Positions 1-3,000 of a stretch of DNA of 22,866 nt are shown one piece after another; within the stretch, counting starts at the first letter, position 1, and each line of letters opens with the position of its first letter. This DNA is from Myxococcales bacterium (lineage in GTDB: Bacteria > Myxococcota > Myxococcia > Myxococcales > Anaeromyxobacteraceae). The stretch spans positions 1 to 22,866 of the forward strand of contig JBBQEB010000052.1 in NCBI GenBank assembly GCA_038320275.1, read 5' to 3'. The position numbers are program-made.

Positions 1-3000
1 AGGACCTCTCGCCCAAGCAGAACCACATGCCGGAGCGCGACGCCCACGAGCGCGCGCGGAACTTCAAGGAAGTGAACCTCGGCTACTCGCTCGAGCAGGC
101 GCTCGCCGAGGCGGAGCGCTGCATCCAGTGCGCGAAGCCCACCTGCGTGGCGGGATGCCCGGTGTCCATCGACATCCCGCGCTTCATCCGGCACCTGCTG
201 GTGCGCGACATGGAGGGCGCGGTCGCGGCCATCCGCGAGTCCAACTTCTTCCCATCGGTCTGCGGTCGCGTCTGCCCGCAGGAGTCGCAGTGCGAGGCGC
301 AGTGCATCCTCGTGAAGAAGATGGAGCCGGTCGCCATCGGGCGACTGGAGCGGTTCGTGGGTGACAACGCCCCCCCCGCCATCTCGATGCCCCCCGCCAT
401 CGCGCCTCACCAGAGGCTGGGGAAGGTCGCCATCTGCGGTTCCGGCCCGGCCGGCCTCGCCGCCGCTGCCGACCTCGTCCGCTACGGCGCGGACGTGACG
501 GTGTTCGAGGCGCTGCACGTGGTGGGCGGCGTGCTCCAGTACGGCATCCCGTCCTTCCGGCTCCCGCGCGAGATCATCTCCCGCGAGGTGCAGGCGCTGA
601 AGGACATGGGCGTCAAGATCGAGACCAACAAGGTCATCGGCAAGACCTTCACCGTCCAGCAGCTCATGAAGGACAAGGGCTACGACGCCGTGTTCCTGGG
701 CGTCGGCGCCGGCGCGCCCGCCTTCCTGGGCATCCCGGGCGAGAACCTGTCGCAGGTCTACAGCGCGAACGAGTTCCTCACGCGCGTGAACCTCATGGGC
801 GGCGATCGCTTCCCGTACCTCGACACGCCCGTCACGCTCGGCAAGAGCGTCGCCGTCATCGGCGCCGGCAACACCGCCATGGACTGCCTGCGCGTCGCGA
901 AGCGGCTCGGCGCCCCGACGGTGCGCTGCGTCTACCGGCGCACCGAGGCCGAGGCGCCCGCACGCATCGAGGAGATCCGCCACGCCAAGGAGGAGGGCAT
1001 CGAGTTCTTCTTCCTCCACGGCCCCGTCGCCATCGAGGGCGACAAGGACGGAAACGTCACCGGCATGAAGGTCGAGCGGATGGTGCTCGGCGAGCCGGAC
1101 GAGAAGGGGCGCCGCAAGCCGGTGGGCACCGGCGAGATCATCACCCTCGAGTGCGACACGGTCATCTCGGCCCTGGGCACCAAGGCGAACCCGATCATCA
1201 CCCAGTCGACGCCCGGCCTCGAGCTCAACAAGTGGGGCAACATCGCGGCCGATGACGGCAAGCTGGACTCGACCCAGGCCACCAGTATCCCCGGCGTCTT
1301 CGCGGGAGGCGACATCGTGACGGGCGGCGCCACGGTCATCCTCGCCATGGGGGCGGGGCGGCGCGCCGCGAAGTCCGTCGCTACGTACCTCCAGCACAAG
1401 AAGCAGAAGTGGCCCATCACGAAGGAGGACGTCGCCGCCTTCGTGGCTCCGGACGCCCATGCGCGCCCGGTCGACGAGGGGTTCCACGTGGGGGCGACGG
1501 TAGTGGAGGGTGCGATGCAGGTTCCGATGGCGAAGGCTCCGATGGACATTCCGCCGAACTACTGCCCGAAGTGCCACCGCCCGCTCGAGGGCAACGAGCA
1601 GTACGTCTGCTGCGCCGACGCGAAGCTCGCCTGGCGCTGCGGCGAGTGCGCGAAGGTGAGCGAGGGCTTCGCCTTCCCGTACGGACTCTGTCCGAACTGC
1701 GGCGCGGGGAAGCTCACGCCGGTGGACGAGCGCCAGGTGAGCAGCGCCGAGGCGCACCAGGCCATCCGGACCGCATTCGAGATCGAGCTGGGGGGAAAGG
1801 CCTTCTACACGCAGGCGTCGCGCGACGCGGCCGAGCCGGTGCTCAAGGAGCTCTTCTCCAAGTTCGCCGCCATGGAGGGGGAGCACATGACGACGCTCTC
1901 CCGGCGCTATCACACCGACATCCCGGCAACCGCGGACCTCAAGATCGACCGCGCGGCGATCTACGCAGGGATCCCCAACCGGCCCGAGGACCCTGCCAAC
2001 CTCTTCCGCATCGCCATCGCGTTCGAGGAGCGGGCCGTGAAGTTCTTCTCCGAGCGCGGGGCTTCCTGCTCCGAGGGCTCCGCCGAGCGCGAGCTCTACC
2101 GCGAGCTCGCGGCCGAGGAGCGCGAGCACGTCGACATCCTCACGACGGAGTTCGAGCGGTACAAGCAGGGGAAAGCGGGGATGCTGTAACGCGGACGACC
2201 GGCAGAGGGGGCCGCGGCCCGCCCCTCCTCATCGCCGCCGCGCTGGGTGCTGGGCTCCTGCTCGCGGCGTGCGGCGAGGGAAGCTTCTCGATCGGCGCGC
2301 TGTCCGAAGGCCTCGCCGAGGCCCCGCGGCAGGCCCCGGCGGACGCCGGCGCCCTGCCGCCCGCGAGCCCGGACGCAGGCGGGTCGCCCGTCGCCTCCGG
2401 GGATGGGGGCACCCTTGCCGACGCGGGGGGCGCTCCCGGCACGGCCCCCGACGCCGGCAGCGCGTTCGCGCCTCCCCCCGCGGGAGCCGGGCCGCAGATC
2501 GGCGGCTGCCCGGTGTTCCCGCCGGGCGACCTTTGGAACCGGGACGTGAGCGGGGCGCAGGTGGATCCCGCCTCCGACGCCTACCTGCAGGCGATGTCGC
2601 CGGAGGCGAAGGTGGGGCTCGCCTTCGGGCTCACCGAGACGTACTGGGGCGCTCGCTTCGTGGTGGTCCCTCCCGAGCAGCCGCTCGTTCCCATCACGTA
2701 CGGAGTGGATGGCGAGAGCTATGCCTCGCAGAGCGATCCGGGCCCGCTTCCCATTCCGCTCGACGTGCCCATCCAGGGAGGGAGCGACGCCAATCCCGAC
2801 CCGTCCTCCGGGGATCGCCACGTCATCGTGATCCAGAGCGGCACCTGCCAGCTCTTCGAGCTGTACCAGGCTGTCCGGGAGCCCGGCGGCTTCCGGGTGT
2901 CCTCCTCGGCCCGCTTCGACCTGCGCACCGACGGGCCGCGGCCGGCCGGCTTCACCTCCGCAGACGGCGCCGGGCTCCCCATCTTCCCGGGGCTCGTCCG

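What a model noticed while it worked through the whole genome (the two positions that open the first line are those of the whole stretch)
3..2189. Single-chain electron-bifurcating NfnA-NfnB carrying a C-terminal Cys-rich ribbon and rubrerythrin-like diiron domain
g01690 is the C-terminal 728 aa of a ~1,030-aa single-chain Nfn transhydrogenase (its NfnA part is g02466 at the end of C98): NfnA-NfnB followed by four Cys pairs and a ferritin-like four-helix domain with two ExxH motifs. This links an electron-bifurcating enzyme to a likely peroxide- or metal-reducing diiron centre.
Evidence so far: The 229-aa tail matches 18 of 20 family genomes at 60-71%, 15 of them in open frames of 1,020-1,110 aa. 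Two relatives read in full give single ORFs of 1,036 and 1,058 aa holding NfnA, NfnB and the tail; Pfam on one: NAD_binding_1, DHODB_Fe-S_bind, Fer4_20, Pyr_redox_2, weak Rubrerythrin E 0.0012. The tail hits ferritin-like COG1633, a rubrerythrin-like protein and bacterioferritins in the PDB; E..E, ExxH, E, ExxH are visible in the sequence.
(Added by a program. Inside this text positions count along the whole contig: contig position 1 is position 1 of the stretch shown here. "Call 12" and the like, gene names such as g00115 and contig names such as C1 are that model's own, and its searches are not shown. The text may have been shortened before it was handed on; [...] marks where a part breaks off. 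The agent that wrote the report below was given it as the finding of a first reader that could run no searches.)

Follow-up and report, generated by a model that had tools for sequence, protein, structure and literature searches.

The report
Nfn enzyme with overlooked di-iron tail
This is a real, widespread bacterial redox enzyme that databases list under a misleading name, and its iron-binding tail, which also sits unremarked on a genetically studied Rhodopseudomonas enzyme, probably serves as a built-in peroxide sink but has never been tested.

Summary
Bases 3-2189 encode NfnB, eight cysteines and a four-helix di-iron domain. The genome's only NfnA match ends at a contig end about 26 codons short (about 1,022 aa in all). 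The architecture is not new: it is NCBIfam PRK12775/NF009413. The same three-part protein is AadN of Rhodopseudomonas palustris, shown by that paper's own primers. AadN is needed for anaerobic benzoate growth, yet the paper's text never names the tail. New here: (1) the tail is fused to, or directly follows, one clade of single-chain Nfn in several phyla, even at 32-38% identity. (2) Eight Cys and six di-iron ligands are almost invariant in 163 loci. (3) The second Cys site resembles rubrerythrin's rubredoxin domain. (4) Rubrerythrin's capping glutamate is missing in 163 of 163. Best reading: a ferredoxin/NAD(P)H-exchanging Nfn with a reverse-rubrerythrin-like peroxide sink (0.45). Bifurcation, metals and docking are untested. 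This scan noted the family before on other DNA. Side lead: AadN's 'C38W' suppressor seems to lie upstream of the conserved start codon.

The parts
3..2189 (+). 3' 728 codons of the PRK12775/AadN-family gene (NfnB, linker, Cys module, di-iron domain). NfnA is on contig C98 (L001 806..3, minus strand).
3..1400 (+). NfnB (large-subunit) domain: two [4Fe-4S] clusters, b-FAD, NADP site
117..356 (+). [4Fe-4S] ligand motifs RCxxCx4Cx3CP (117-161) and CGRVCPQExQCx3C (261-305), and the GRLERF glutamate (339-356)
   Evidence: motifs as listed in PMC6405883
540..560 (+). YGIPSFR; Arg186 equals T. maritima NfnB Arg187 at flavin N5
   Evidence: Arg in 91 of 91 cores
861..947 (+). NADP(H) Rossmann motif and YRR arginines
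1401..1559 (+). Variable, probably flexible linker; the gene is split here in Betaproteobacteria and others
   Evidence: pLDDT under 50 at 780-800 of the homologue model
1563..1613 (+). Cys site 1, CxxC-x11-CC (metal unknown)
   Evidence: 4 Cys in 163 of 163 tails; partly lost in some more distant relatives
1632..1700 (+). Cys site 2, WRCxxC-x13-CPxC, short rubredoxin-like domain of rubrerythrin type
   Evidence: D. vulgaris rubrerythrin 150-178, E 0.004; RUBY_RBDX E 0.008, under its cut-off
1746..2165 (+). Ferritin-like four-helix bundle with E595, E625, H628, E675, E706, H709; Ala678 where rubrerythrins have the capping Glu

Best explanation
The protein is a single-chain ('pattern B') Nfn of the AadN/PRK12775 clade. 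Its core exchanges electrons between ferredoxin, NADH and NADP(H) at the b-FAD. In this genome it most likely turns reduced ferredoxin from PFOR/OFOR plus NADH into NADPH, or runs the other way to reduce ferredoxin (core inferred, about 0.75). The tail is a reverse-rubrerythrin-like module. A rubredoxin-type Fe(Cys)4 site takes single electrons from the core and passes them to a 4-Glu/2-His di-iron site, which reduces H2O2 or a similar oxidant. It would carry flux only when oxidant is present, protecting the low-potential flavin and clusters in bacteria that move between anoxic and microoxic conditions (tail role inferred, about 0.55 given the core). Shown: domain order, motifs, gene linkage, identity with AadN. 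Inferred: metals, electron path, substrate.
For: Core: 4ylf_B E 7e-143 and 5jca_S E 1e-92. NfnA keeps GGGLGVA/GFR/TDDGS like NfnI and unlike NfnII, and cofactor ligands are invariant in 91 of 91 cores. The orthologue AadN (74% over NfnA, 65% over the window's 728 aa) is needed for anaerobic benzoate growth and can feed nitrogenase (PMC9973337). PFOR and 2[4Fe-4S] ferredoxin genes follow the tail in split loci. Tail coupling: 76 of 80 genome loci are fused (58) or adjacent (18), 4 are too short to tell; 60 of 80 distant loci are adjacent, 11 unlinked, 9 too short. 21 of 23 Myxococcota genomes with this Nfn clade have the tail, against 0 of 12 with ordinary NfnA; the NfnB clade has support 98/84. 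Ligands are conserved and match rubrerythrin's four Glu and two His (PMC11926857). Precedents: a hydrogenase-rubrerythrin fusion reduces H2O2; FNR/NADPH reduces ferriperoxin (PMC3317640); Rub-Bfu is predicted (PMC9304861). One tail-less member is followed by a rhodanese-rubrerythrin gene.
Against: The capping Glu (E93 in PMC12154734; E97 in D. vulgaris, recalled) is Ala, Thr or Ser in 163 of 163, and the second Tyr is Phe in 156 of 163. That this Glu matters for peroxidase turnover is recalled, not checked. Fold matches do not single out rubrerythrins: ferritins, bacterioferritins and COG1633 tie at Z 14-15. The genome has its own canonical rubrerythrin. No Fur- or PerR-like box lies upstream, and 9 of 15 proteobacterial split loci have an FNR box, which points to anoxic metabolism. 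The tail also occurs away from Nfn (11 loci) and fused to aryl-CoA ligases. One clade member has no tail nearby (L183). The full-length model has pTM 0.63 with a disordered linker, so it gives no docking. A high-potential sink wired to the core could short-circuit bifurcation.
Confidence: 0.45

Rival explanations
1. The tail is a sensor or gate. Its metal sites read O2, peroxide or iron and switch the Nfn core off or change which ferredoxin it serves, without catalytic turnover.
For: Capping Glu absent in 163 of 163; flexible linker; the module also rides on aryl-CoA ligases, where a peroxidase makes less sense; electron flow from AadN is insulated between pathways.
Against: A rubredoxin next to a di-iron site is an electron-relay layout. 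No regulatory precedent was found in 10 paper searches.
Confidence: 0.2
2. The tail stores and releases iron for building or repairing the enzyme's Fe-S clusters, with the core reducing and mobilising the iron (as in Fpr-Bfd-bacterioferritin or YtfE; recalled).
For: The six-ligand site without the seventh Glu is bacterioferritin-like; best structural matches are ferritins and COG1633; weak MbfA match; partners are Fe-S-rich (PFOR, hydroxybenzoyl-CoA reductase-like genes).
Against: A two-iron site on a 1,000-aa enzyme stores little; no Fur box; no Isc/Suf genes among the recurring neighbours annotated.
Confidence: 0.13
3. The tail is the high-potential acceptor of bifurcation: NADPH gives one electron to ferredoxin and the other, via the [2Fe-2S] centre, to rubredoxin/di-iron and then peroxide, so oxidant drives ferredoxin reduction.
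For: Potentials allow it ([2Fe-2S] +80 mV; rubredoxin about 0 mV); near-obligate linkage; hosts are largely facultative; one degenerate homologue (P0281) has lost both the N5 Arg and the di-iron ligands.
Against: The NAD site is intact in 91 of 91 cores, so NAD remains the likely acceptor; AadN is needed under anaerobic growth; the tail is attached at the NfnB end.
Confidence: 0.1
4. The core does not bifurcate: it is a plain ferredoxin:NADP oxidoreductase, NADPH-to-tail reductase or glutamate-synthase beta subunit, as the database names say.
For: Database names; NfnII precedent; the genome also has PntAB.
Against: NfnA with [2Fe-2S] and NAD site is fused on; GltD structures score far below NfnB; no glutamate synthase large subunit among recurring neighbours annotated; the genome has a separate, distant GltD-like gene.
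Confidence: 0.12

Closest known systems
NCBIfam NF009413 / PRK12775, 'putative trifunctional 2-polyprenylphenol hydroxylase/glutamate synthase subunit beta/ferritin domain-containing protein'
   Same: Same architecture end to end: the A. dehalogenans 2CP-1 homologue scores 2194 bits (cut-off 1895); the window half covers profile 294-1006 and the C98 half 1-267.
   Different: The name is wrong on function and names no Nfn. PRK12775 occurs in 1 paper of the library, on phages (listing only). The model does not cover the split forms.
AadN (RPA0678) of Rhodopseudomonas palustris, PMC9973337
   Same: Three primers of Table S2 translate into the 994-aa TIE-1 protein P0414, one of them at its last five residues and stop, so AadN includes the tail. 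74%, 65% and 60% identity for NfnA, the whole window ORF and the tail.
   Different: The paper treats AadN as NfnA+NfnB only: 'ferritin' 0 hits, 'rubr' only in 'rubrum'; Fig. 4A itself could not be seen. AadN lies by hba genes, whereas this genome showed no HGD-D-type benzoyl-CoA reductase or NifH (91% complete).
NfnAB/NfnSL of T. maritima (4YLF) and P. furiosus NfnI (5JCA); pattern B of Liang et al. (PMC6405883)
   Same: All listed cofactor motifs and the N5 Arg; TM-score 0.89-0.91 to the solved subunits.
   Different: One chain plus a 210-aa metal module; none of patterns A-D in that review describes it ('rubre' 0 hits).
Reverse rubrerythrin and rubrerythrin; PF1190-like (2FZF) and COG1633 (2OH3) ferritin-like proteins
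   Same: Short-spaced rubredoxin domain before a four-helix 4-Glu/2-His site; best sequence matches 2FZF E 9e-9 and 2OH3 E 1e-5.
   Different: An extra CxxC...CC site; no capping Glu; second Tyr mostly Phe; tied to an Nfn.
HydR ([FeFe] hydrogenase-rubrerythrin fusion, PMC11926857) and predicted Rub-Bfu (PMC9304861)
   Same: A low-potential redox enzyme joined to a rubrerythrin to reduce H2O2 (shown for HydR, predicted for Rub-Bfu).
   Different: Unrelated cores; those partners are described as true rubrerythrins.

Membership tests
PRK12775/NF009413 | Full-length match to the 1006-position model above 1895 bits | tested here: inconclusive
   The two halves score 562 and 1302 bits on separate contigs and cover 1-267 and 294-1006; the whole homologue P0104 passes at 2194.
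AadN orthologues | Collinear NfnA-NfnB-tail, same clade | tested here: met
   (AadN itself was not in the tree)
AadN orthologues | Over 90% identity and adjacent to aromatic-degradation genes (the paper's own rule) | tested here: not met
   65-74% identity; neighbours unrelated; HGD-D not found
Nfn (NfnSL type) | NfnA: ERxPxT, DGTGMCGxCRx10CV with Asp ligand, NAD-type site | tested here: met
Nfn (NfnSL type) | NfnB: two [4Fe-4S] motifs, Glu ligand, N5 Arg, NADP arginines | tested here: met
Nfn (NfnSL type) | NAD+-dependent ferredoxin reduction by NADPH | not testable with these tools
   No assay found for any member, AadN included.
Rubrerythrin / reverse rubrerythrin | Four-helix bundle with 4 Glu and 2 His | tested here: met
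Rubrerythrin / reverse rubrerythrin | Short-spaced CxxC-x10-14-CxxC rubredoxin-like domain | tested here: met
   Spacing 13. Fe versus Zn unknown.
Rubrerythrin / reverse rubrerythrin | Capping seventh ligand (ExxE on helix 3) | tested here: not met
   Ala 83, Thr 79, Ser 1 of 163; present in the genome's canonical rubrerythrin
Rubrerythrin / reverse rubrerythrin | H2O2 reductase activity and dimer | not testable with these tools
   Needs assay.
Glutamate synthase beta subunit (GltD) | TIGR01317/TIGR01318 cut-offs; gltB partner | tested here: not met
   252 and 382 bits against 448 and 483; TIGR01316, which passes, is also hit by the Nfn cores.

The most novel reading that the evidence does not exclude
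The AadN/PRK12775 clade is a peroxide-coupled bifurcating enzyme. Its rubredoxin/di-iron module is a third outlet that either replaces NAD+ as the high-potential acceptor, so that traces of oxidant drive ferredoxin reduction, or takes confurcated NADH plus ferredoxin electrons to peroxide. It would be the first tested case of flavin bifurcation wired to a di-iron centre and would explain how microoxic bacteria keep low-potential chemistry running.
Probability: 0.12. Interest if true: 0.85.

Novelty: new member of a known kind. Interest (0 to 1): 0.5.

Why it matters
AadN is, by its authors' account, the first pattern-B Nfn with a proposed role, and it is being used to rewire electron flow to nitrogenase. 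About a fifth of that protein is an unremarked metal module that has stayed with this Nfn clade across Myxococcota, Pseudomonadota and, by Atlas labels, Acidobacteriota and Methylomirabilota. Existing R. palustris strains make the tail's role directly testable. If it is a peroxide outlet, it would give the first workable test of the bifurcation-to-peroxide idea so far only predicted for Rub-Bfu. The gene in this window is itself an ordinary member.

Tried and rejected
Complex prediction of core with tail was not available, so docking is open. The single-chain model and its fold search gave no position for the tail. Contig overlap C98/C52: none of 12 bases or more; no listed contig of the four runs laid bridged the gap. 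RNA-library contigs (X15, X17, X19) cover core and tail of relatives at under 95% identity; they show no expression of this gene and I do not count them. Conserved operon in Anaeromyxobacteraceae: rejected, no real neighbour gene recurred in more than about 10 of 80 loci except PFOR (16) in split forms. Shared FNR control: rejected for fused genes (1 of 47). Role in nitrogen fixation or benzoyl-CoA reduction in this genome: NifH, HGD-D and RnfD not found. Free rubredoxin not found. R. palustris DNA could not be obtained. Paper searches: searches found no description of an Nfn with this tail; subscription journals are not covered.

Full report
Observation. Window 3-2189 is a 5'-open frame of 728 aa with coding-type GC3 throughout. 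It holds an NfnB domain, a linker of about 50 aa, eight cysteines and a four-helix domain that passes Pfam's Rubrerythrin cut-off. The genome has one DHODB_Fe-S_bind match, the NfnA running off contig C98. Against P0003 about 26 residues are missing between the contigs, giving about 1,022 aa; that join is inferred. A contig of run X1 matches 1289-2103 exactly across the core-tail junction (X1 may be the source sample). Named relatives place the genome among Anaeromyxobacteraceae.

Spread and linkage. The tail matched 21 of 24 other same-family genomes and 1 of 16 other same-order genomes strongly. Protein searches found 942 longer and 1,061 similar-length homologues. A genome scan kept the best 80 of 458 relatives: 58 have the tail in frame with NfnB, 18 have it as the next gene, 4 have too little DNA upstream, none is unlinked. 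The split forms are betaproteobacterial and Rhodospirillales; PFOR follows in 16 loci, a DHOD-like gene in 9, a ferredoxin in 7. A distant subfamily at 32-38% identity (best 80 of 356 metagenome loci) again follows a single-chain NfnAB in 60 loci, stands alone in 11 and cannot be judged in 9. In 201 Myxococcota genomes, 23 have NfnA at 63% identity or more and 21 of them have the full tail. The 12 genomes with NfnA at 45-54% have two-gene NfnAB and no full tail (only 15 candidates per genome were scored). In a 40-row NfnB tree the tail-linked enzymes and the two exceptions form one clade (98/84), apart from 11 ordinary NfnB. Of the exceptions, L183 has no tail in 12 kb and L184 is followed by a rhodanese-rubrerythrin gene. 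Core and tail identities correlate over 88 pairs (rho 0.90), but one deep split and kinship inflate this. In Pseudomonadota the module is rare: 2 of 401 genomes.

The core. NfnA is closer to P. furiosus NfnI (E 4e-90) than to NfnII (2e-53) and keeps the glycine-rich NAD motif, GFR and TDDGS that NfnII lost. The [2Fe-2S] and [4Fe-4S] ligands, the Glu ligand, the N5 Arg (T. maritima Arg187) and the NADP arginines are invariant in 91 of 91 cores. This makes bifurcation likely but does not show it.

The tail. In 163 tails all eight Cys are invariant; of the six di-iron ligands one Glu differs once and one His falls in a truncation. In a more distant 27-row set conservation is weaker, and site 1 or ligands are lost in some rows. 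Site 2 aligns with D. vulgaris rubrerythrin's rubredoxin domain (E 0.004) and the bundle with 2FZF and 2OH3. The model has four long helices (pLDDT 79) and matches ferritin-like folds without preferring one family. The helix-3 capping Glu of rubrerythrins is never present. So the tail is laid out like a reverse rubrerythrin but is not a member. The full-length model of P0104 (pLDDT 84, pTM 0.63) leaves the linker disordered.

Known already. NCBIfam NF009413/PRK12775 models the whole 1,006-residue architecture under a misleading name. R. palustris TIE-1 and BisB18 encode the same 994-aa protein, and both are listed as aadN-positive. Three aadN primers translate into it at residues 262, 335 and 990-994 plus stop, so AadN carries the tail. 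AadN is needed for anaerobic growth on benzoate and 4-hydroxybenzoate, and a suppressor allele feeds nitrogenase. Neither version of the text mentions a ferritin or rubrerythrin domain; the figures were not visible and the preprint's supplements were not seen. Precedents for pairing a low-potential enzyme with rubrerythrin are HydR (shown) and Rub-Bfu (predicted).

This genome. It has PFOR and OFOR matches, PntB and a canonical rubrerythrin; NifH, HGD-D, RnfD and free rubredoxin were not found at 91% completeness. Fused genes mostly have a conserved TTGAC-N17-TG.TAC promoter-like site (seen by eye) and no FNR, Fur or PerR box, while 9 of 15 proteobacterial split loci have an FNR box with one mismatch (consensus boxes recalled). 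General redox balancing is therefore the likeliest job here.

Mechanism. I commit to an Nfn-type exchanger with a rubredoxin-to-di-iron outlet for peroxide (0.45). Rivals are a sensor or gate (0.20), iron supply or repair (0.13), a non-bifurcating reductase (0.12) and the tail as high-potential acceptor (0.10). Against my reading stand the missing Glu, the separate rubrerythrin, FNR-type control, stand-alone and ligase-fused copies, and the lack of any docking evidence.

Papers seen: PMC6405883 abstract, passages and parts 2-3 of the main text; PMC9973337 passages, section 7, Table S2 whole and a supplement search; bioRxiv 2022.10.07.511188, PMC5114695, PMC12154734, PMC3317640, PMC9304861, PMC11926857, PMC10746287 and PMC6315080 passages; PMC6085437 a term search with no hits; PMC12506544 and PMC6630229 listing only.

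Verdict. Real and correctly described; a new member of a catalogued family with one genetically studied orthologue. The untested tail, now tied to AadN, is the point of interest: 0.5.

Noticed in passing
P0414, P0505, P0507, P0508 (R. palustris cluster) and Table S2 of PMC9973337: AadN's suppressor 'C38W' cannot lie in the conserved 994-aa frame: counted from the conserved Met, residue 38 is Leu and the first Cys is 156 in 11 of 11 proteins checked. Three annotations with an upstream extension have a Cys four codons before that Met, which would be codon 38 of a 41-codon extension. The mutation may therefore change the ribosome-binding region rather than the enzyme. CGA009 DNA was not held, so this is unverified.
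   Followed up: partly
L184:4566-5426 (-), G119: An Nfn of the tail-linked clade is followed by a rhodanese-rubrerythrin fusion instead of the usual tail; a single case.
   Followed up: partly
P0281 (Planctomycetota MAG, 975 aa): Degenerate fused homologue: N5 Arg, NAD motifs and di-iron ligands are lost, all eight tail Cys are kept.
   Followed up: no
L181:5753-7973 (+), G021; P0246, P0252: The tail is fused to an aryl-CoA ligase behind hydroxybenzoyl-CoA-reductase-like genes; the G021 contig looks betaproteobacterial and may be bin contamination, and its ligase frame is broken.
   Followed up: partly
L185, G004 (same genus, 100% complete): Lacks the three-part gene and has an ordinary two-gene NfnAB instead.
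   Followed up: partly
L031 and L033; G222 (L197, L199): Two copies of the Nfn-tail unit in one genome (A. oryzisoli, identical protein scores; Georgfuchsia MAG, 88% identical tails).
   Followed up: no
L031:766-1284 (-) and 9 other loci; L060:3848-4447 (-) and 6 others: A hemerythrin gene or a peroxiredoxin-like gene lies divergently upstream of the fused gene in two sub-lineages.
   Followed up: no
L110:6001-6639 and 10 other low-GC loci: Distant tail genes standing alone with no Nfn upstream; whether those genomes have the Nfn elsewhere is unknown.
   Followed up: partly
L210:8428-16371, L211:2361-10233: Pattern-C Nfn (NfnA last, about 960 aa) faces or follows a very large PFOR-like gene of about 1,680 aa.
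   Followed up: no
window 12429-15506 (-): Two tandem periplasmic branched-chain-amino-acid-binding-type genes; the first has an N-terminal cytoplasmic-looking domain, a Pro/Ala linker and a membrane helix.
   Followed up: no
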